Below, piece by piece: positions 12,462 to 63,034 of a DNA stretch of 64,000 bases (positions are counted from its first letter, which is position 1; every line of letters begins with the position of its first letter). The notes below the pieces were generated by a model. That model was not told the origin of the DNA. It worked only from the letters and a program-made list of their open reading frames with translations, and searched no databases. The position numbers were made by a program, and so were the translations under genes. The stretch is from Escherichia phage CMS-2020a: the sequence record CP053388.1; one strand, written 5' to 3'.

Positions 12462-13337
12462 TTAAATTTTTACATTGGTCAGTGCAGCGATAGCCTTATC
12501 GTGCTTATTCGCCAGAGAGCAGTACCACTTCACACGGGTACGTACTGCGTCTTTGTTCTGTACAGTACCAATGTTTTCAACAACGATACCTGCGTTGTCG
12601 CCGCCATACAGACCAGTAACGCCGTTCTCTTCTGACAGATGCAGGCAGTAGATGCTTGCTTTGCCAGCATCGGTCGGAATGAAGTCGTTTACGATAAACG
12701 GAACGCCGTTATGGCACAGCATCGGACGACCGAAGTTCTCCATCATGATTTCAGACGGACCTACGTTTACTGTACGCAGCAGCGCACGGTAAGCACGCAG
12801 GTGCTCTGAACGCATCATGATGCAGTCAGCACCAAGATCTTTCACCGCATCGACCAGTTCGTCGAACATGGAGAAAGTCATAGATGCACCGGCGATATCG
12901 ATCTTCTGATCTGCGTGCATCAGGCGTGGAATGCCGTCAAACGCCTTGTTGTTAGTGGTGGAGTCGCCAACAATCAGATTGCGACGGAAGGCACGAGCCA
13001 GACCTTTGACTTTCTGACGAACCTGGATAGCCAGCTGGTTGTTGGTATCAGCCATAGTGGTAGCCAGGAATTTGTCGACGTCAACGTCGCCAGCCAGAAT
13101 GCGCAGCTTCGCAACTTTCTCTTCGAAGGTTGCTGCACCTTCGGTGATGGTGTCGTTCACATCAATGAAAGTAGCTTCGCTCAGCGTTTTTTCACGGTTG
13201 TACAGATATGCCTTTGAATTAATTTTCATAAAAGGCAGGATGGCAAACAGGTCATCGCGATCGATGATAGTTTCGATCACACCCTGTTCAAGTTCGTTGT
13301 TAGACAGCTTTTCAGCTTCTTCACGCAGTAATGGCAT
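12462..13337 (-). CDS. Major capsid protein (putative)
   Basis: 291 aa ORF after the scaffold-like gene and before the decoration-like gene; assigned by gene order and size, no motif recognised. Confidence 0.55.
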   Translation of the reverse strand: MPLLREEAEKLSNNELEQGVIETIIDRDDLFAILPFMKINSKAYLYNREKTLSEATFIDVNDTITEGAATFEEKVAKLRILAGDVDVDKFLATTMADTNNQLAIQVRQKVKGLARAFRRNLIVGDSTTNNKAFDGIPRLMHADQKIDIAGASMTFSMFDELVDAVKDLGADCIMMRSEHLRAYRALLRTVNVGPSEIMMENFGRPMLCHNGVPFIVNDFIPTDAGKASIYCLHLSEENGVTGLYGGDNAGIVVENIGTVQNKDAVRTRVKWYCSLANKHDKAIAALTNVKI

Positions 13338-15846: not shown

Positions 15847-15872
15847 TTGAATAACCTTAGATAACTACTTAC

Positions 15873-17129
15873 CTATCGAGAACCACCAAGAATAACACGG
15901 TTTTTGACTGGATACCTACGATGTACTGGATAGCCCAATGCGTCTGCACTATGCTCAATGCCACCTGTCTTATCCATATCTCGTGTTCCAGGCTTGTAGA
16001 TGACTTTTTCCAGTGAATCAATCAAATGCTTGCACTTCGGATCGATATACAGCCGGATATCTCCAGATGCGGACATCAGCATTCGGTTAACAGCATTAAC
16101 ACGATCCGCAATTGGCGGGTGCTTTTTCGAATAATCGACACGTAAGAATCCCTTCTCTTTGAATATGTCTACGTCAGACTCCCCACGAGCATGTTGGCGA
16201 TAAGCACCTGCCGGATCTGGAAATACCGTTACCTGTGATTTCCAGCGCCAGAAGCGTCTCTCAAGCTCATCACAAACTTCTGCCGTGTTAGAGGAAAAGA
16301 GCACCAATTCATCAATTGCCCATAGCTCACCATTTGGCTGAGGTTGCAAAATTACTGAAGACATCGGGTCAATGTTGAAGTCCTGCCCTACCCATATAGG
16401 CAACCGAGGGTTGAACTGAAGCGGTTTTACATGCACGTTACGATCGAACGGGTAGTAAACGCGCCCGGACATGTTCTCAAAGCTGGCCAGGTACTCCTGA
16501 GCGAACGATTTGGGGTCCATATCGTTCTTAGCAGCTTCAATTTCCGCCGTAGGTACAAACGGAGAATCGGCAGTTACAAACTGCCAGCTCTTCCACTGTC
16601 CCTTTCTTTGCAGCTCTACGTTCTGGCCTATCGTCCACAGTTTGTGAAATTCCGAGAAGCCTTTTGGCGTACCAATGATCAGTGCACCGCCGCGTGTCGA
16701 TGAAAGAGTAGGTCGTAACACCTTGTACCAGGTGTCAGCCTTCATATCCTGAAATTCATCAAGCACTACAAAATGCAACGCTACGCCGCGCAGAGTGTCA
16801 GGCTTATCAGCACCTTTGAGGGCGATCTCCGAACCGTTCTTCAACACGATTGTCATCGTGGTGTCGTTCTTTTTCCTAACCCACTTACGAGGCAGAACTT
16901 CCTGTAGATCGTCCCACAAAATCTGGCGAGCCATCTGGTAAGTAGGAGCGACATACCAGACCCTTTGCTTTTTTTCCTTTGCCGCCGCACGAATAATAGT
17001 GGAGATCGACAACCGGGATTTTCCCCAGCGTCGACCAGCACAAACAACTTTAAATCGATGCGGAGACTGGAAGACTTTCATCTGTCCAGAATGCAGTTGC
17101 ACAAGACTGAGCGAGGACGGGATTGCCAT
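15873..17129 (-). CDS. Terminase large subunit
   Basis: Walker A (VVCAGRRWGKS) and Walker B (HFVVLDEFQD) in the N-terminal ATPase, acidic residues in the C-terminal half; ATGA overlap with the upstream small subunit. Confidence 0.85.
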   Translation of the reverse strand: MAIPSSLSLVQLHSGQMKVFQSPHRFKVVCAGRRWGKSRLSISTIIRAAAKEKKQRVWYVAPTYQMARQILWDDLQEVLPRKWVRKKNDTTMTIVLKNGSEIALKGADKPDTLRGVALHFVVLDEFQDMKADTWYKVLRPTLSSTRGGALIIGTPKGFSEFHKLWTIGQNVELQRKGQWKSWQFVTADSPFVPTAEIEAAKNDMDPKSFAQEYLASFENMSGRVYYPFDRNVHVKPLQFNPRLPIWVGQDFNIDPMSSVILQPQPNGELWAIDELVLFSSNTAEVCDELERRFWRWKSQVTVFPDPAGAYRQHARGESDVDIFKEKGFLRVDYSKKHPPIADRVNAVNRMLMSASGDIRLYIDPKCKHLIDSLEKVIYKPGTRDMDKTGGIEHSADALGYPVHRRYPVKNRVILGGSR

Positions 17130-17761: not shown

Positions 17762-17867
17762 AGATCCCTCTAAAACACACAGAGCGCGTCCATGCGCTCT
17801 AAAACAACTTGTTTACTGCATCTGCTAACCAACTTGTTTTCTGGGGTGTTTAATTAGGTCTGGCATG

Positions 17868-17922
17868 TCTTACGAAGCCTGCTTCCGTATATATTTAATA
17901 AGTTACTTATTATTTATATATA
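17868..17922. promoter_or_regulatory. Imperfect 55-bp palindrome, copy 1 (probable bidirectional terminator or regulator site)
   Basis: cctgcttccgtatatat...atatatacagaagcagg with an AT-rich centre; near-identical copy at 47953-48020. Confidence 0.5.
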
Positions 17923-17956
17923 CAGAAGCAGGTCTTTAAATAAGCTCCCAGACCGA

Positions 17957-18223
17957 TTACATCACCAGTAACTTCGCTTTGGCTCGACCTAAAGTAGTTA
18001 ACCCAAGAGTTCGGCGGTGATAGCGATTGTCACTGCGTTGGCGCGTATGCCCTTTCTCCACCAGCCCCTTTTTTATCAGAGCGCGAATTGAGAACTGGAT
18101 ACTTTGCTTGGTTGTCTTGTACGGCAAAACTTCAAGCAATTCGTCCAGGTCAAGTAGATGACCTCGCTCATAACCGAGATTGAGCGTTTTGATGATGTCC
18201 TTTTGTTTATCGGTTAACGTCAT
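17957..18223 (-). CDS. Small DNA-binding protein (winged-HTH-like), hypothetical
   Basis: 88 aa basic ORF, last gene of the ParB/ATPase operon. Confidence 0.4.
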   Translation of the reverse strand: MTLTDKQKDIIKTLNLGYERGHLLDLDELLEVLPYKTTKQSIQFSIRALIKKGLVEKGHTRQRSDNRYHRRTLGLTTLGRAKAKLLVM

Positions 18224-21377: not shown

Positions 21378-21392
21378 TAAGTAATCACTTAC
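21367..21392. promoter_or_regulatory. Palindromic motif B in the divergent promoter region
   Basis: actaagtaatcacttacttat between the divergent ParB-like and helicase genes. Confidence 0.45.
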
Positions 21393-21441
21393 TTATTATA
21401 ATAGCCAAATAACATACAAAAGGCACTAAGGAAAGAGGTTT

Positions 21442-27152: not shown

Positions 27153-27356
27153 GATTAATTCCTTATCGTAAATAACAAATTGTTTTCTTGTTGGTGTTAA
27201 TTATCGTTGTACGAATAAGGCGTCAAAGTGGAAAGTTGCGGTAGCCGGACGGGAACAGGTGGGTTTGTCGGTTGCCTGGAGGTAAGAGGTTGGTGTTTTT
27301 AGCCTGCGGGAAACAAGATGGTCATTTAAGGCCACCAATGCTGATGGCCTTAATAA

Positions 27357-36212: not shown

Positions 36213-36582
36213 TTCCTGAGCCATAAGTATCTGGCGACTGAGCTAAGATTAACCGAATGTACTGGATTCATCAAGAAACGTTGAGTGGTCATACTAGGTA
36301 ATAATGACCATTTACTAAACATCGTTGTTCTCAAAGAAGATTTAAGTCCAGGTTTTTGGTGACTCTAAAACCTTACCTTAACTCGAAATCGTGCCGTAAG
36401 TATCTGGCGACTACAGATATTGCAACTGCAAAGGCAAGCTCAAAGGTATTTGCAGCTAGGTGCGATAAAACTAAGTGAGGCCTATAGTGCTTAACTTACT
36501 TTTCAAAATCGTGCCGCCTATGTTCGCAATCATCGAAGCGATCATTGAGTACGTCAACCAGCGCCCATAATGCTAGTTGTTA

Positions 36583-36612
36583 CCGGCCCCATCCAAATGG
36601 GGCCATTTTATT
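36583..36612 (+). terminator. Rho-independent terminator (plus orientation)
   Basis: Hairpin ggccccatccaaatggggcc followed by attttatt. Confidence 0.45.
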
Positions 36613-36619
36613 GTATTGA

Positions 36620-37252
36620 CTACATACTTTCTGATCTAATTGAGTTGTTCACTGCTCTGGCAATCTTCTCCCGCAATTGCTGCGCTCCGTGGTACTGAAC
36701 CGCAATATCCCGCAACTCGTTCACCAGTTCTCTAATCTGGTGATCTTTAAGCTCATTATTTGGGTGATGGGTAACAACTCTGGTTAATTCACCCTTGTCT
36801 TTTGCTCTTACGTATGCAGCTCTTGTGCATTCGACCCATGTATTACCGCCTACATTAACTTCGTAGATTAGGCTGGACTTATCTGTCAATTCGGAACAAA
36901 TACGGGCCGTGGTCTGGCAACTAGAGCATTCGCAGTTATCGCGGAAACCGTGATCTACCGGTCGAGAAAGAGGTTTAACTTTTTCATCCAACTTCATCAC
37001 AGCATCGTGATAAGCGTTCCAGCCGTCATCTTTACCAAGTTGATAAATCTCTGAAGGCTCCATGTAGTCTATATCGCAACCTTCTTCATCCGATCTATCT
37101 GGTCGCTTCCCTGGTAATCGCTCATAAAAACGTTTTCTGTCTCGACGTTCGGCTCTCAGAGCTAACGCAAGAAGTTGCTCAAGCGAGGTATTTGCACCAG
37201 CAATAATTTCATTGAGAATATCTTCTGTGAGATCTTTCGCTACCGTGCTCAT
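36620..37252 (-). CDS. Hypothetical protein
   Basis: 210 aa ORF coupled to the upstream gene. Confidence 0.5.
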   Translation of the reverse strand: MSTVAKDLTEDILNEIIAGANTSLEQLLALALRAERRDRKRFYERLPGKRPDRSDEEGCDIDYMEPSEIYQLGKDDGWNAYHDAVMKLDEKVKPLSRPVDHGFRDNCECSSCQTTARICSELTDKSSLIYEVNVGGNTWVECTRAAYVRAKDKGELTRVVTHHPNNELKDHQIRELVNELRDIAVQYHGAQQLREKIARAVNNSIRSESM

Positions 37253-41432: not shown

Positions 41433-41492
41433 GTGTTTTCTCTTATCGTTTAGTTACTACATTCTTACATAAACTAAGTAAGTATTTACCTA

Positions 41493-43178
41493 TCATTTAA
41501 CGCGTTTGAAAACGTATACGCTGACTGTGATCCCTGTGTCTTCAAACTCGTTGGTAAACGACTTCCCTCTGGCATAAACGTAATTATCCATCGTCATCCA
41601 GTCCAGTATTGGCGCAGTGCCCGGCAATACTGCTACAAGACGCCCGCCGACTTTCAGATGCCCCAGCGCAGCCAGCGTGTGCTCTCTATGACGACCAAGC
41701 GAGTACGGCGGGTTCATAACGATTTTGTCGAACTGATAACCTACGTTGTCCTCAGACCACTTTATGAAGTCGCAGCAAATCGTGTTCGTATACCCTTTTC
41801 CGCGCAGGATATCAGCGAAGAGAGGTGCGATTTCTATGCAGGTAACATCTTCCAGATCGGCGTTGATATAGGCCAGAAGATCCCCACGTCCGGCTTGAGG
41901 CTCCAGCAGCTTCTCACCAGACTTCAATTCAGTGGCTCTGGCAACGTACTCAGCAATCAAGCGTGGGGTAGGGTAGAACTGGTGTGATTTTGTATCCGGT
42001 ATTAATCCGGTAGCCACAATCGTATTTAGCGTATGGCCGATCTCATACGGGAACTGCCAGTGTTTTTTCTCCTGCACGCCGCCAATGAAGCTCAGTGTGC
42101 GCTCAAGCTCTTCCACCTGCGACTTCTGGAGAGCTGAATCAGAGAAGTACCATACGCCTTTGTCTTTGCTCAATCGCCCGTCACGAAGCGCAGTGCGAAC
42201 CGGCACGGAGATCGTCTTCTGGATTAACCCGAACTGCTTTGGTGCCCGTGTTTTTGGCGCAGTTCGGCATGGCGCGGGGATTGCAGCAGGCATACTGTAA
42301 GCCAGCACCTCATTCAACTTCCAGGCCACGTCAGGATGTATTTCAAAGTGAACGTTGCCGTTCTTGAACATCTTCACGCGCATCAGATTTCCATCGACGT
42401 TCATCCAGTCACCGGTCTGGCAGTCGTTTGCTCGATACGCAGCTGATAGCACCTCAGCAGTGCGGTTGATGGTAATAAATTCTTTGTGCGCGAAGAAATG
42501 AAGCAAGACACGCAGATCGTCGATGTAGTCCTCTTTGCGATAGTTCACGCTAACGCTGTCCCGCCAGAAATCAGAAATGCAGTCAGCGATTATCAGACGC
42601 TCGCTGAAACCGTTTGTCTTATTTGTCTTGTGCGCAGGACTCAGCGCCTTAAACAAGCCATACACGCGCTCAGAGAGATATTTGTGCCTGTCATTCAGCA
42701 AATTAAGCATCGTGGGTATGACCGTTTCTGCTTTGAACTCCGGTACACCAACGAACTCTTTAACCTTCATCTGGTAGCCGGTTCTGTCAGTTTTGATGAC
42801 TTCCTGTTTGCCCTCTATAAACTGCTCGCGCCACTCATCTCGACGGGAAGCTGGCATGATCAGCAAAACGTTAGTCATGTCCGTGACCTTCCTCCAGTAC
42901 TCGGCCCAAATATTCTGTTTCACCCATTCCAGATCGACTTTATCCAACCAACCTCGATTTAAACGCGAGCGATCTTCATCTGGTCGATGGTTTAGTCTCA
43001 GCAGGCGATTAATCATGTTGTGGCGTTCGTCGCCATAAACGAAGTCGTGTACCTGATACATGAAGGCGATCTCTTTCTCGCACTCGGCCACAATTTCGTG
43101 GATGACGTTCATTTCCTGCCGATAGTCGATAGCAGTGTTTGAGTTGGCATCGTCGATGATGGAAAGGGCTGTATTCAT
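41493..43178 (-). CDS. Large protein with C-terminal N6-adenine (or N4-cytosine) methyltransferase domain
   Basis: FYPTPRLIAEY, motif I-like LEPQAGRGDLL, then motif IV IVMNPPYS within the last about 180 aa; N-terminal about 380 aa of unknown function. Confidence 0.55.
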   Translation of the reverse strand: MNTALSIIDDANSNTAIDYRQEMNVIHEIVAECEKEIAFMYQVHDFVYGDERHNMINRLLRLNHRPDEDRSRLNRGWLDKVDLEWVKQNIWAEYWRKVTDMTNVLLIMPASRRDEWREQFIEGKQEVIKTDRTGYQMKVKEFVGVPEFKAETVIPTMLNLLNDRHKYLSERVYGLFKALSPAHKTNKTNGFSERLIIADCISDFWRDSVSVNYRKEDYIDDLRVLLHFFAHKEFITINRTAEVLSAAYRANDCQTGDWMNVDGNLMRVKMFKNGNVHFEIHPDVAWKLNEVLAYSMPAAIPAPCRTAPKTRAPKQFGLIQKTISVPVRTALRDGRLSKDKGVWYFSDSALQKSQVEELERTLSFIGGVQEKKHWQFPYEIGHTLNTIVATGLIPDTKSHQFYPTPRLIAEYVARATELKSGEKLLEPQAGRGDLLAYINADLEDVTCIEIAPLFADILRGKGYTNTICCDFIKWSEDNVGYQFDKIVMNPPYSLGRHREHTLAALGHLKVGGRLVAVLPGTAPILDWMTMDNYVYARGKSFTNEFEDTGITVSVYVFKRVK

Positions 43179-47136: not shown

Positions 47137-47635
47137 ATTACTTCCCAGAACAGGTTTTTATAAACCTGAACTGAACGAACGAAGTGAGTGAAGTTCACCT
47201 CGAACGAAGTGAGAGGTTGTCTTTTCAGGTAATACTCTCCCAGGGAGGTGAGTATAAAAATCTCTCACCAACCTGGTCGTTTCATAACCTGAAAAGTTAT
47301 GGTCTAAGTCTACTGCCAGCTTAGACTTGGGAAGTTATGGATGACAGCACCCCAGAACCGAGATCTTCCCACACTTTATGAAGGGGAGTACTGGATTCAA
47401 CCTCTCGAAACACCCCAGACTCGACAATCATAAAGTGACCCTTGTCTCTGCTCACTTTGGTTCCCCCTTCCCCGACACCTAAACGGCACCAGTTCTACGC
47501 TGGTAGTGAGCTTTTTTTAAACCTGACGCCAGTGACGCTTACCCCCACCCATCAGGTCGAGTCTCCAGTCTACGACTGGAAACTATCAGATCTTAGCACT
47601 TACAATTCACTTTATGAATAGTTTGTACTTATCTA
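47137..47635. other. About 500-bp non-coding region with several stem-loops and short direct repeats
   Basis: Direct repeat cgaacgaagtgag (x2), hairpin caggtttttataaacctg, long-range inverted repeat cttttcaggt...acctgaaaag; no ORF of 60 aa or more with an RBS. Confidence 0.4.
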
Positions 47636-47866
47636 TCATTGTGATTGATTATTTTCTCTACCATGTAGTTGAACATTCAAGGCAAACACCTCATTGATCA
47701 ACTCACCTAAAAGCTGTTCAACAAGTTCGCGATGCTCGCCAAGATGCAAGCACTTAATTGCCCATTCGTACAAGTTGAAAGCCTGCTCACGATCTTTCAT
47801 CATTTCACGAGCCTGGGCCAGAAAATCGCTCTCTACGAGCGCAACGACATTAGTCGGGTATGACAT
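47636..47866 (-). CDS. Hypothetical protein (start adjusted to MSYPTNVV)
   Basis: RBS AAGGAAA before ATG at 47866. Confidence 0.45.
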   Translation of the reverse strand: MSYPTNVVALVESDFLAQAREMMKDREQAFNLYEWAIKCLHLGEHRELVEQLLGELINEVFALNVQLHGRENNQSQ

Positions 47867-47952
47867 GTTGGTTTCCTTAAAGTGGTTCATAAAATCGATT
47901 TTAAAGCGTCTGGGAAGGGGTTCTAGTGGATTCTGTAGTGATGTTCAGGTCT

Positions 47953-48020
47953 GGAGTCTCTGATACAAAGCTGCCTGCTTCCGTATATTAATAATTAATA
48001 TGTAGTTATTTATATATACA
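47953..48020. promoter_or_regulatory. Imperfect palindrome, copy 2
   Basis: gcctgcttccgtatatt...atatatacagaagcaggc; near-identical arms to the 17868-17922 copy. Confidence 0.5.
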
Positions 48021-48051
48021 GAAGCAGGCTAATTACAGACGCCAGAACAAA

Positions 48052-48645: not shown

Positions 48646-48708
48646 CTTCTTTCTCGATAGGTAAGTATATACCTATTTTTGCATTTGATTTTATGTCTGG
48701 CAATCAAA

Positions 48709-58163: not shown

Positions 58164-58236
58164 GTATCACCAAATAAAGAGGGCCACTAAATATAGTGGC
58201 CCATGTTAATAGATAAGTACTTACCTATCAATGAAA

Positions 58237-62780: not shown

Positions 62781-63034
62781 GTGTTTTTCCTTTGTGGTTA
62801 TTTTGATACAAATTTTAAGAGCAATGAGAAGGTAAACAACTATGCATAACGGTATGTTATGAATGAAACGAGCGCCTTAATATACAAAATTTATAAGTAA
62901 GTATATACCTATTTATTGTGGCGCAACTTTGCTTGTCTGTATGACTAAAAATAAGACAGGATCACTGTAGAACGCTATGAGAGCTATTTTGAGGAGGCGT
63001 AGATTCTATCTACGCCAATATACGATCTGGAGGG

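What the first reader, a model, noticed from the sequence alone, without database searches (positions are those of the whole stretch)
17868..17922. Large imperfect palindrome present twice (second copy 47953-48020)
A 55-65 bp palindrome with arms cctgcttccgtatatat and atatatacagaagcagg occurs downstream of the ParB/ATPase operon and again downstream of the Dam gene, each time just before a motif-bearing promoter region. The arms resemble but do not match a LexA box (CCGT instead of CTGT). Likely bidirectional terminators or binding sites for a module-boundary regulator.
Basis: seen in the sequence. Interest (0 to 1): 0.4.

Follow-up and report, generated by a model that had tools for sequence, protein, structure and literature searches.

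The report
Conserved boundary hairpin in SSU5-like phage-plasmids
A 55-base palindrome that sits between gene blocks of this E. coli phage-plasmid (twice in the window, three times per genome) is real and strongly conserved, and most likely acts as a hairpin transcription stop that shields the virus's lytic gene blocks from upstream transcription.

Summary
The palindrome is real, but the coordinates are about 10 nt off. The true positions are 17878-17932 and 47974-48028. The window is an SSU5-like phage-plasmid, 98-99% identical to E. coli phages CMS-2020a and Cyrano.

The element has three fixed positions per genome, always between same-strand gene blocks:
- upstream of terS (window copy 1);
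- downstream of dam (window copy 2);
- upstream of the DnaB-helicase/primase operon (outside the window).

It is also larger than reported. TCTGG and CCAGA flank it, and about 110 nt folds as a unit.

The 14-nt arm cores are 89-98% identical across genera, while the flanks are only 49-76% identical. Distant relatives carry a different, co-varied palindrome at the dam position.

At the dam and helicase sites a T-run follows the hairpin on the sense side only. In Cyrano RNA-seq, transcript levels fall 9- to roughly 200-fold across the helicase-site copy. One lineage that lost the palindrome has a canonical terminator there instead.

Best reading (about 0.5): a family-specific long-hairpin terminator or insulator.

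Caveats:
- The two window copies have weak U-tracts.
- The arm sequence is more conserved than a plain terminator requires, so a DNA-binding-site role is not excluded.
- LexA-box and cos/pac readings are rejected, and bidirectional termination is not supported.

The parts
17878..17932 (-). Copy 1 (site 1) inner palindrome, 55 nt. Arms are 17878-17894 and 17916-17932. The apical mini-palindrome is AATAAGT-t-ACTTATT at 17897-17911. It lies 25 nt after the stop of the 88-aa winged-helix gene (17957-18223, -) and 117 nt before the terS start (17761).
   Evidence: (D14). The orthologous copy is present in all 74 terS loci that reach that far upstream.
17948..17954 (-). Site 1 outer inverted repeat, upstream half in the sense direction (CCAGACC on +, GGTCTGG on the sense strand). 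TCTGG lies 19-21 nt before the palindrome in 35 of 39 unique site-1 sequences.
17857..17863 (-). Site 1 outer inverted repeat, downstream half in the sense direction (GGTCTGG on +, CCAGACC on the sense strand). It pairs with 17948-17954 in the predicted 110-nt fold.
47974..48028 (-). Copy 2 (site 2) inner palindrome, 55 nt. Arms are 47974-47988 and 48012-48028, and one more G-C pair is possible at 47973/48029. It lies 23 nt after the dam stop (48052) and about 85-105 nt before the small ORF (start at 47866 or 47890).
   Evidence: (D14). The orthologous copy is present downstream of dam in 68 of 80 dam loci.
48042..48046 (-). Site 2 outer inverted repeat, upstream half in the sense direction (CCAGA on +, TCTGG on the sense strand).
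47948..47954 (-). Site 2 outer inverted repeat, downstream half in the sense direction (GGTCTGG on +, CCAGACC on the sense strand).
47959..47973 (-). Sense-side tail of copy 2 (CAGCTTTGTATCAGA). This is a degraded U-tract: the closest relatives have CTGTTTTGTATC and other lineages have CTTTTT.
   Evidence: tail score 1.1, 74th percentile, against a family median of 2.87, 98th percentile
17863..17877 (-). Sense-side tail of copy 1 (CTTCGTAAGACATGC). It is only weakly U-rich, and this holds across the family at this site.
   Evidence: tail score 1.98, 93rd percentile

Best explanation
The element is a family-specific, long GC-clamped and AT-topped hairpin. It acts in the sense transcript as a factor-independent transcription terminator or insulator. 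It sits at the three junctions between the large same-strand gene blocks of SSU5-like phage-plasmids.

The proposed sequence of events is as follows. RNA polymerase arrives from the upstream block. That block is the par operon plus cargo genes at site 3, the nucleotide-metabolism and dam block at site 2, and the ParB_N/ABC-ATPase block at site 1. The polymerase transcribes the 55-nt palindrome. The 17-bp stem forms, with CCUGCUUC(U/C)G pairing to CGGAAGCAGG at its base. Where a U-run follows, the transcript is released. This keeps the next lytic block under the control of its own regulated promoter: helicase/primase at site 3, the small ORF and rnhA region at site 2, and terS and the late genes at site 1.

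Transcripts that read through would contain the downstream CCAGA segment. They can then close the roughly 110-nt extended hairpin, which is a plausible RNase III or mRNA-stability element in the manner of lambda sib/tI.

What is shown:
- the anatomy, conservation and positions of the element;
- the sense-side T-runs at sites 2 and 3;
- the expression drop across site 3 in Cyrano.

What is inferred:
- that the hairpin itself causes the drop;
- that sites 1 and 2 of this particular window, which have weak U-tracts, still terminate or attenuate;
- any role for RNase III.
For: 1. Position. The element is always intergenic and always between same-strand blocks, at three fixed positions per genome (12518, 39079 and 73729 of the 109,442-bp pGMI17-003_2).

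2. Sense-side T-run.
- The T-run begins directly after the stem at site 2 (33 of 44 unique sequences have at least 5 T in 9 nt) and at site 3 (26 of 27).
- The tail-score medians sit at the 98th-99th percentile of the window background.
- Antisense tails are ordinary.
- The T-run stays on the sense side even where the inner palindrome has flipped.

3. Experimental hint. In Cyrano, which is 98% identical, CYRAN_28-30 read 50-89 normalized counts (log2 up to 10.4). The next same-strand gene, CYRAN_31, is at background (6.2; log2 2.3-2.9). The 193-nt spacer holds the site-3 palindrome followed by TCTTTT, and the simple scan finds no other hairpin there (data from PMC9928086 S1 Table).

4. Replacement. 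In the lineage where the site-2 palindrome has decayed (L153-L159, L162), a canonical GC hairpin with a T-run sits right behind the remnant.

5. Substitution pattern. The tolerated arm substitutions are mostly C-to-T transitions. On the sense strand these give G.U about 3 times as often as A.C (80 against 32 cells; 35:1 at site 3).

6. Stability and covariation.
- The hairpin is strong (-26 to -29 kcal/mol, z -7.7 to -9.4).
- Distant relatives keep the architecture with different, complementary inner arms (GCCTTGCTCCCATA / TATGGGAGCAAGGC).
- They also carry a different outer repeat (CCGCAGTG / CACTGCGG).

7. Link to the downstream operon. At site 3 conservation begins at the element and continues into the downstream operon at a fixed 115-121 nt, while the upstream cargo is variable.
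Against: - The two copies in this window have poor U-tracts: site 2 at the 74th percentile and site 1 at the 93rd. Site 1 lacks a U-tract across the family.
- The distant lineage with the co-varied palindrome has no U-tract at all.
- The simple terminator scan does not call either copy.
- Arm positions 1-4, 7, 11 and 13 are invariant in both arms across 66 unique palindromes at three paralogous sites. Variation at positions 5, 6, 8 and 9 is mostly not compensated. A plain terminator does not need this, and it suggests sequence-specific recognition.
- Folding energy shows no consistent sense-strand preference. At site 2 the antisense strand is more stable in 41 of 44 sequences.
- The G.U bias rests on few independent events.
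- The Cyrano evidence is gene-level read counts for site 3 only. Genes flanking sites 1 and 2 are all at background in the lysogen, so those sites are untested.
Confidence: 0.5

Rival explanations
1. The element is a DNA-level recognition site. The conserved arms (CCTGYNTYYGTATA), and perhaps the TCTGG/CCAGA flanks, would be bound by a phage or host protein that marks module boundaries. Its role could be silencer, roadblock, boundary regulator or accessory partition site. One candidate is the 88-aa winged-helix protein encoded immediately upstream of copy 1.
For: - The arm sequence is conserved far beyond the flanks (0.89-0.98 against 0.49-0.76 identity). Its outer edge is sharp and several positions are invariant, while variable positions are mostly uncompensated.
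- The same sequence is kept at three paralogous sites across genera.
- The 88-aa gene next to copy 1 models as a winged helix. Its best, though weak, fold matches are LexA N-terminal DNA-binding domains, and the arms contain a LexA-like half-site, CTGTATAT.
- There is precedent for dispersed palindromic protein sites in a phage-plasmid: N15 IR1-4 (PMC7205306).
- A bound protein could also explain the RNA drop at site 3 as a roadblock.
Against: - Arm-to-arm spacing varies from 49 to 57 nt through (TA)n slippage, and is about 45 nt of loop in distant relatives. This argues against a rigid dimer spanning both arms on B-DNA.
- The sense-only T-run and the replacement by a canonical terminator have no explanation under this model.
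- The Foldseek E-values are not significant (0.14 or worse) and the model is single-sequence with pLDDT 72.
- A better candidate for the par operator or centromere is the separate AAACAAGTTGTTT motif, which lies upstream of parA.
- pMT1 partitions with its own P7-type ParAB.
Confidence: 0.2
2. The element is primarily an RNA processing or stability element. The roughly 110-nt extended hairpin in polycistronic or read-through transcripts would be an RNase III site or a 3'-end protecting hairpin. It would uncouple the fates of upstream and downstream mRNAs, like the T7 R sites or lambda sib retroregulation, with termination being secondary.
For: - The flanks pair extensively. A median of 14-25 of the 35 upstream nucleotides pair with the downstream flank, and at least 96% of sequences show an outer stem.
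- Extended folds reach -41 to -49 kcal/mol, z -5 to -9.
- The outer repeat is conserved at all three sites despite asymmetric spacers. It is replaced by a different complementary pair in distant relatives that have no U-tract and only about 45 nt to the next start codon.
- Asymmetric internal loops suit RNA better than a DNA cruciform.
Against: - There is no direct evidence of cleavage.
- There is no sense-strand energy preference.
- Rfam returns only sub-threshold generic hairpin hits.
- In the main family the outer repeat is conserved in sequence rather than co-varying.
Confidence: 0.15
3. The element is a recombination linker or selfish repeat. The palindrome would persist because it is a hotspot for homologous or hairpin-mediated exchange that shuffles modules and cargo, as PeSLs do in T4-type phages, with little function of its own.
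For: - At site 3 the variable cargo ends exactly at or inside the element.
- Arms of different allele types are combined in one palindrome, which suggests crossovers in the loop, and whole palindromes are flipped.
- Cargo is inserted between the par operon and the element at 33-2040 nt.
- PeSL recombination in the loop is documented (PMC2839356).
Against: - There are only three copies, at strictly conserved positions in every lineage examined. No empty sites and no target-site duplications are seen.
- The purifying pattern on the arms and the sense-specific T-runs imply a selected function.
Confidence: 0.07
4. The element is a lytic replication origin, or a cruciform-forming element of one. 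AT-rich palindromes next to replication genes would be unwound or extruded to start replication, as with the AT-rich palindromic origins of herpesviruses.
For: - The centre is AT-rich with GC clamps.
- Site 3 lies directly upstream of the unknown-protein, DnaB-helicase and primase operon.
- Site 2 lies near rnhA and a 500-nt non-coding region.
- As single-stranded DNA the hairpins fold at -14 to -16 kcal/mol.
Against: - Three origins at gene-block junctions, one of them in front of terS, would be unusual.
- No iteron array surrounds the copies.
- The sense-only T-run and the RNA drop are unexplained.
- The outer repeats have asymmetric spacers, which disfavours extrusion beyond the inner 55 bp.
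Confidence: 0.04
5. The element is a packaging site (cos or pac). Copy 1 lies upstream of terS, and the SSU5 and Cyrano GenBank records begin and end inside it.
For: - The SSU5 record breaks in the loop (...GACTTATTA | AATATATACGG...), 133 nt before terS. Cyrano breaks at the same point.
Against: - Three copies per genome lie 27-48 kb apart.
- TerL is Terminase_6N (T4-type), with P74-26 and T4 gp17 as the nearest solved relatives. This type is usually associated with headful packaging (the link to packaging mode is from general knowledge).
- A 55-bp three-copy repeat is a natural assembly breakpoint, which explains the record ends.
- Cyrano was probably aligned to SSU5.
Confidence: 0.02
6. The element is a host LexA operator.
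For: - One arm contains CTGTATAT, a perfect LexA half-site.
- Cyrano is induced by ciprofloxacin (PMC9928086).
Against: - The half-sites are about 39 bp apart rather than CTGT-N8-ACAG.
- The partner arm has CCGT, and most family members (SSU5, pMT1, Klebsiella) have CCGT/ACGG in both arms.
Confidence: 0.02

Closest known systems
PeSLs (promoter-early stem-loops), the composite terminator/promoter cassettes of T4-type phages (PMC2839356, PMC4122927)
   Same: - Both are repeated, sequence-conserved intergenic elements about 100 bp long.
- In both, a stable stem-loop blocks upstream transcription and sits just before the regulatory region of the next gene.
- Both coincide with recombination junctions, including crossovers in the loop, and with variable cargo.
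   Different: - PeSLs occur in dozens of copies inside hyperplastic regions and carry a consensus sigma-70 promoter. Here there are only three copies at fixed junctions between major modules.
- No sigma-70 consensus is detected next to these copies.
- The stem here is AT-rich with a GC clamp rather than polyG/polyC.
- An extra outer inverted repeat is present here.
Intrinsic (Rho-independent) terminators, including long-stem phage terminators such as T7 T-phi (own knowledge)
   Same: - A GC-rich stem base is followed directly by a U-run on the sense side at two of the three conserved positions.
- The position is at the end of transcription units.
- There is an RNA drop across one copy.
   Different: - The hairpin is 55 nt, with a 17-bp stem plus an apical mini-hairpin.
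- The primary sequence is conserved across three paralogous sites and several genera.
- The U-tract is weak or absent at site 1 and in both copies of this window.
Lambda sib/tI retroregulator and the T7 RNase III (R) sites (own knowledge)
   Same: - A terminator hairpin can be extended by read-through into a longer imperfect duplex with internal loops.
- Homologous hairpins recur between gene blocks of a long same-strand transcription map.
   Different: - No cleavage data exist for this element.
- The sequences are unrelated.
- The function here is inferred from anatomy only.
Dispersed palindromic centromere sites IR1-IR4 of phage-plasmid N15 (PMC7205306 and the references in it)
   Same: - A few copies of one palindrome are scattered over a phage-plasmid genome, near the regulatory regions of phage genes.
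   Different: - N15 IRs are 16-bp perfect palindromes bound by SopB. This element is 55 nt with a variable AT-rich spacer and a sense-side T-run.
- The par operon of this family has a different palindrome (AAACAAGTTGTTT) in front of parA.

Membership tests
Intrinsic (Rho-independent) terminator | Stable GC-rich stem-loop in the transcribed strand | tested here: met
   - As sense RNA the hairpins fold at -29.0 and -26.1 kcal/mol, z -9.4 and -7.7.
- The basal 9 bp contain 6 G-C pairs.
- The apical loop is 3 nt in copy 1.
Intrinsic (Rho-independent) terminator | U-tract immediately 3' of the stem | tested here: inconclusive
   - Family level: site 2 and site 3 medians are at the 98th-99th percentile.
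- Site 1 is at the 93rd percentile.
- The window copies score 1.98 (site 1) and 1.10 (site 2, degraded).
- The simple scan does not call either copy.
Intrinsic (Rho-independent) terminator | Transcripts end there in vivo | tested here: inconclusive
   - Gene-level RNA-seq in Cyrano shows a 9- to roughly 200-fold drop across site 3.
- Sites 1 and 2 are uninformative because their flanking genes are silent in the lysogen.
- No 3'-end mapping is available.
PeSL-type terminator/promoter cassette | Stem-loop adjacent to a consensus sigma-70 early promoter | tested here: not met
   - No sigma-70-like site lies on the sense strand downstream of either window copy or of the Cyrano site-3 copy.
- Other conserved motifs follow instead.
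PeSL-type terminator/promoter cassette | Many copies concentrated in hyperplastic regions, flanking ORFans | tested here: not met
   There are three copies per roughly 109-kb genome at fixed positions. Only site 3 abuts variable cargo.
PeSL-type terminator/promoter cassette | Sites of recombination between otherwise unrelated sequences | tested here: met
   - The variable left flank at site 3 ends at the element.
- Some palindromes have chimeric arms.
- Some palindromes are flipped.
LexA (SOS) box | CTGT-N8-ACAG, a 16-bp palindrome | tested here: not met
   - CTGT and ACAG are about 39 bp apart.
- One arm is CCGT in the window.
- Both arms are CCGT/ACGG in SSU5, pMT1 and most other lineages.
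cos/pac packaging site | Single site per genome next to the terminase genes, matching the virion DNA ends | tested here: not met
   - There are three copies per genome.
- TerL is of the T4-like Terminase_6N type.
- Virion ends could not be examined.
ParB/parS-type or N15-type centromere | Short palindrome bound by the cognate centromere-binding protein | not testable with these tools
   - Binding cannot be tested here.
- Circumstantial evidence for: ParB_N genes lie upstream of copy 1, and the type Ib par operon lies upstream of site 3.
- Circumstantial evidence against: the parA promoter region carries a different palindrome.
RNase III processing site (T7 R sites, lambda sib) | Extended imperfect dsRNA of about 20 bp or more with internal loops in an intercistronic transcript, cleaved by RNase III | tested here: inconclusive
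   The structural requirement is met. Cleavage cannot be tested.
MITE / mobile palindromic repeat (ERIC or Correia type) | Terminal inverted repeats with target-site duplication, and presence/absence polymorphism among relatives | tested here: not met
   - The same three positions are occupied in all lineages.
- No duplicated flanks are seen.
- The element is absent from other genomes except SSU5-like replicons.
Any Rfam RNA family | Match at or above the gathering score | tested here: not met
   There are no gathering-level hits in the window. Only sub-threshold microRNA-precursor-like hairpin hits appear.

The most novel reading that the evidence does not exclude
The triple palindrome would be a dedicated DNA-level boundary element of SSU5-like phage-plasmids. 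The family includes Y. pestis pMT1, S. Typhi pHCM2 and Klebsiella AMR phage-plasmids. A phage-encoded protein would recognise the arms sequence-specifically. One candidate is the LexA-DNA-binding-domain-like 88-aa winged-helix protein encoded right next to copy 1. That protein would insulate or silence the three lytic gene blocks in the plasmid state, or fire them as origins on induction. The hairpin and U-run would be only one layer of its function.
Probability: 0.15. Interest if true: 0.6.

Novelty: new member of a known kind. Interest (0 to 1): 0.35.

Why it matters
SSU5-like phage-plasmids are widespread in Enterobacterales. About 800 PLSDB plasmids match this region, among them Y. pestis pMT1, Salmonella plasmids and Klebsiella plasmids that carry resistance genes. 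Their gene regulation is almost unstudied.

A conserved element that divides the genome into three blocks would explain two things. The blocks are replication and nucleotide metabolism, accessory and control genes, and virion genes. First, it would explain how constitutively expressed plasmid and cargo genes coexist with tightly silent lytic operons on one strand. Second, it would explain why cargo insertions accumulate at one of these junctions.

There is also a practical consequence. The 55-bp three-copy repeat is a likely cause of contig breaks, and of the arbitrary start of the SSU5 reference record.

Tried and rejected
- **LexA box.** Rejected on spacing and on the CCGT arms.
- **cos/pac site.** The SSU5 and Cyrano records break inside copy 1. 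Three copies per genome and a T4-type TerL argue against a packaging site. A repeat-induced assembly break is the simpler explanation.
- **Mobile MITE or wider repeat family.** The genome-contig scan found the element only in SSU5-like replicons. The apparent 'other plasmid' hits H60-H62 turned out to be site-2 and site-3 contexts of the same family.
- **Known RNA family.** Rfam at permissive E-values and at gathering level returned nothing. No tRNA was found.
- **Literature.** No paper in the library contains the arm sequences. Searches on SSU5, pHCM2 and pMT1 regulation, termini and repeats returned nothing on this element. One preprint could not be opened.
- **Strand test by folding energy.** There was no consistent sense preference, so it could not separate RNA-level from DNA-level function.
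- **A fourth degenerate copy.** A candidate near pGMI 67018 is a coding-region coincidence.
- **Scan for other sites in the distant lineage.** The two-arm scan found only the dam-side site.
- **Decay test in pMT1.** This was uninformative. Site 1 is identical to SSU5, and sites 2 and 3 were lost together with their modules.
- **Function of the flanking proteins.** Pfam, PHROGs and PDB searches gave no functional clue beyond Dam, ParB_N, ABC ATPase and TerL.
Full report
**What the window is**

Both regions are 97-99% identical to the E. coli phage-plasmids CMS-2020a, PhiR41_1 and Cyrano (pLF82). They are 77-87% identical to Salmonella phage SSU5 and to Klebsiella SSU5-like phages. About 800 PLSDB plasmids match the copy-1 region and about 700 match the copy-2 region. 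These come from Klebsiella, Escherichia, Enterobacter, Salmonella, Citrobacter and Cronobacter. Yersinia pMT1 matches the copy-1 region only. All genes around both copies lie on the window's minus strand, so 'sense' below means the minus strand.

**Checking the observation**

- The palindrome is real. Copy 1 is at 17878-17932 and copy 2 at 47974-48028. This is about 10 nt to the right of the reported start for copy 1, and 21 and 8 nt to the right of the reported ends for copy 2.
- The four arms are the only matches to the arm 15-mer at up to 2 mismatches, against 0.19 expected by chance. Nothing further appears at 3 mismatches.
- The arms differ by one position. It is C:A on the plus strand and U.G on the sense strand, and it is the same in both copies.
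- As sense RNA the 55-nt hairpins fold at -29.0 and -26.1 kcal/mol, with z-scores of -9.4 and -7.7. As single-stranded DNA they fold at -14 to -16 kcal/mol.
- The gene context is as described:
  - Copy 1 follows two ParB_N genes, ABC-type ATPase genes and an 88-aa gene, and it precedes terS, terL and portal.
  - Copy 2 follows a Pfam Dam methyltransferase.

**The element is larger and more numerous than reported**

I collected loci through the terS and Dam proteins and through a two-arm DNA pattern. Clustering by flanks gave three context classes rather than two:
- upstream of terS (site 1);
- downstream of dam (site 2);
- upstream of an unknown 246-aa gene followed by DnaB-like helicase and primase (site 3).

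Site 3 lies outside the window. In the complete plasmid pGMI17-003_2 the three copies are at 12518, 39079 and 73729 of 109,442 bp. They divide the one-strand gene map into three blocks: replication and nucleotide metabolism, accessory and control genes, and virion genes.

TCTGG lies 18-21 nt upstream at sites 1 and 2, and CCAGA lies 14-21 or about 30-35 nt downstream at all three sites. At site 3 the TCTGG distance is variable or the motif is missing. The flanks pair extensively, and the roughly 110-126-nt unit folds at -41 to -49 kcal/mol.

A scan of one genome per bacterial species found the palindrome only in SSU5-like replicons. These were two Kluyvera species with three copies each, Buttiauxella, Y. 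pestis and two MAG contigs.

**Conservation pattern**

- Across 66 unique palindromes, arm positions 1-4, 7, 11 and 13 never vary in either arm. Conservation stops abruptly at the outer edge of the arm.
- Positions 5, 6, 8 and 9 do vary, and mostly without compensation. At position 9 there are 31 T/C, 10 C/T, 18 C/C and 7 T/T combinations.
- The length ranges from 49 to 57 nt through TA slippage.
- Mean pairwise identity among lineage representatives is 0.89-0.98 for the arms, 0.73-0.83 for the loop and 0.49-0.76 for the flanks.
- On the sense strand, non-Watson-Crick cells are G.U 80 times and A.C 32 times. The split is 35:1 at site 3, 20:6 at site 1 and 25:25 at site 2. These are few independent events, because whole palindromes flip. 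Examples are pGMI site 3 and site 2 of Salmonella and Klebsiella lineages. Arm alleles also recombine.
- More distant relatives (Dam 61-64% identical) carry a different palindrome at the dam position: GCCTTGCTCCCATA, about 45 AT-rich nt, then TATGGGAGCAAGGC. It has a different outer repeat, CCGCAGTG/CACTGCGG. Both stems have therefore co-varied while the architecture is kept.

**Evidence bearing on function**

1. *T-run.* At sites 2 and 3 a T-run starts right after the stem on the sense side only. It has 5-7 T in 9 nt in most sequences. Tail scores sit at the 98th-99th percentile of the window background. The T-run stays on the sense side even where the palindrome itself is flipped.
2. *Replacement.* In the lineage where dam reads into the left arm and the palindrome has decayed, a canonical GC hairpin with a T-run sits directly behind the remnant.
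3. *Expression data.* The S1 Table of PMC9928086 gives RNA-seq for Cyrano in the lysogen.
   - CYRAN_28-30 are on the same strand: ParA, its 119-aa partner and a cargo gene. They read 50-89 normalized counts, with log2 up to 10.4 in other conditions.
   - The next gene, CYRAN_31, reads 6.2 (log2 2.3-2.9), which is background.
   - The 193-nt spacer holds the site-3 palindrome followed by TCTTTT. The scan finds no other terminator-like feature there.
   - This is a 9- to roughly 200-fold drop across a copy of the element.
   - Genes on both sides of sites 1 and 2 are at background in the lysogen, so those sites are not informative.
4. *Link to the downstream operon.* At site 3 the element keeps a fixed 115-121 nt distance to the downstream gene. 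The par operon lies 33-2040 nt upstream, with variable cargo in between. The element therefore belongs with the downstream operon and marks the edge of a cargo-insertion zone.

**What does not fit a plain terminator**

- Site 1 lacks a good U-tract across the family.
- The window's own copies score 1.98 (site 1) and 1.10 (site 2). The closest relatives of copy 2 still have CTGTTTTG.
- The distant co-varied palindrome has no U-tract.
- The arm sequence is conserved beyond what pairing needs.
- Folding energies show no consistent sense preference.
- The simple scan calls neither copy. It does call a separate GC hairpin with a T-run at 17801-17780 on the minus strand, just before the terS ribosome-binding site.

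**Conclusion on mechanism**

The best-supported reading, at a confidence of about 0.5, is a family-specific long-hairpin terminator or insulator. It would protect each regulated lytic block from transcription coming out of the preceding block. Read-through transcripts could close the extended hairpin, giving a sib-like or RNase III-type layer, but that part is inferred only.

The main rival, at about 0.2, is a DNA-level protein site. The 88-aa protein next to copy 1 models as a winged helix. Its best, statistically weak, fold matches are LexA DNA-binding domains, and the arms contain a LexA-like half-site. This is a lead, not a result.

Four readings were considered and set aside:
- *Centromere.* This is less likely because the parA promoter region carries a different palindrome, AAACAAGTTGTTT.
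- *cos/pac.* This is unlikely with three copies and a T4-type TerL. The SSU5 and Cyrano records probably break inside copy 1 because a three-copy repeat breaks assemblies.
- *LexA box.* This fails on spacing and on sequence.
- *Known family.* No Rfam family and no paper in the library describes the element.

**Comparison with known systems and novelty**

In concept the element is closest to the PeSL terminator/promoter cassettes of T4-type phages (PMC2839356, PMC4122927). It is also close to ordinary intrinsic terminators. It fails two PeSL-defining features: an adjacent sigma-70 consensus promoter, and many copies in hyperplastic regions.

I file it as a new member of a known kind, conserved intergenic terminator hairpins in phage genomes. 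It has unusual primary-sequence conservation and a fixed three-site layout. Interest is moderate (0.35). It offers a useful handle on the unstudied regulation of a clinically relevant phage-plasmid family, but it is not a surprise in kind.

Noticed in passing
window 17802-17814 and 17827-17846; also near 27166, 28833, 29317, 31951, 44816, 45532 and 55753; L423 258-273: A 13-bp palindrome, AAACAAGTTGTTT (extended form AGAAAACAAsTTGTTTWAG), recurs at least 9 times in the window. Two of these copies lie between copy 1 and terS. In Cyrano one copy sits about 35 nt upstream of the type Ib parA start codon. It could be the par operator, or dispersed centromere-like sites of the N15 IR1-4 kind, or the operator of a global regulator.
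   Followed up: partly
window, about 14 sites, e.g. 48658-48677, 62893-62911, 58209-58228, 41474-41493, 15858-15876, 21378-21396: A 20-22-bp palindrome, TAGGTAAGTA-NN-TACTTACCTA, lies 10-15 nt upstream of many start codons. Its centre resembles a -10 hexamer (TATACT). It is probably a dispersed operator/promoter set for early genes. The apex of copy 1 (AATAAGTtACTTATT) resembles it, but with different spacing.
   Followed up: partly
window 47137-47635 (minus strand), especially about 47321-47455: A 500-nt ORF-free gap lies between the small ORF after copy 2 and rnhA. It contains three sense-oriented TCTGGG(G) motifs. The matching Cyrano feature, CYRAN_81 (135 nt, annotated hypothetical), reads 12 times above background in the lysogen, with log2 up to 10.3. 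It is probably an abundant small RNA. No Rfam or tRNA hit was found.
   Followed up: partly
window 17780-17801 (minus strand): A canonical terminator-like hairpin, AGAGCGCatggacGCGCTCT followed by GTGTGTTTT, lies between the AAACAAGTTG motifs and the terS ribosome-binding site. It is conserved in SSU5 and pMT1. It looks like a leader terminator or attenuator of the late operon.
   Followed up: no
window 17957-18223 (minus strand): The 88-aa protein (phrog_900) encoded immediately upstream of copy 1 models as a winged-helix DNA-binding protein (pLDDT 72). Its top fold matches are LexA N-terminal domains, but the E-values are not significant (0.14 or worse).
   Followed up: partly
L002 1-20 and L003 2960-3000 (NC_018843); OV696614: The SSU5 and Cyrano reference records are linearised inside the loop of the copy-1 palindrome. 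This is most simply explained as an assembly or orientation artefact of a three-copy repeat.
   Followed up: partly
site-3 loci L006, L168, L180, L200, L204 and others; pGMI17-003_2 70933-73783: A type Ib ParA and its 119-aa partner always lie upstream of the third palindrome. Between them and the palindrome sit 33 to about 2040 nt of variable cargo, such as a KAP NTPase or hypothetical genes. This junction is a cargo-insertion hotspot.
   Followed up: yes
window about 36412-36801 (from Cyrano 89311-89700): The Cyrano annotation places a 129-aa LexA-like S24 peptidase here. It is UmuD/HumD-sized and has no DNA-binding domain, and it is among the most highly expressed genes in the lysogen (148 against a background of 10). 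I did not examine the window ORF itself.
   Followed up: no
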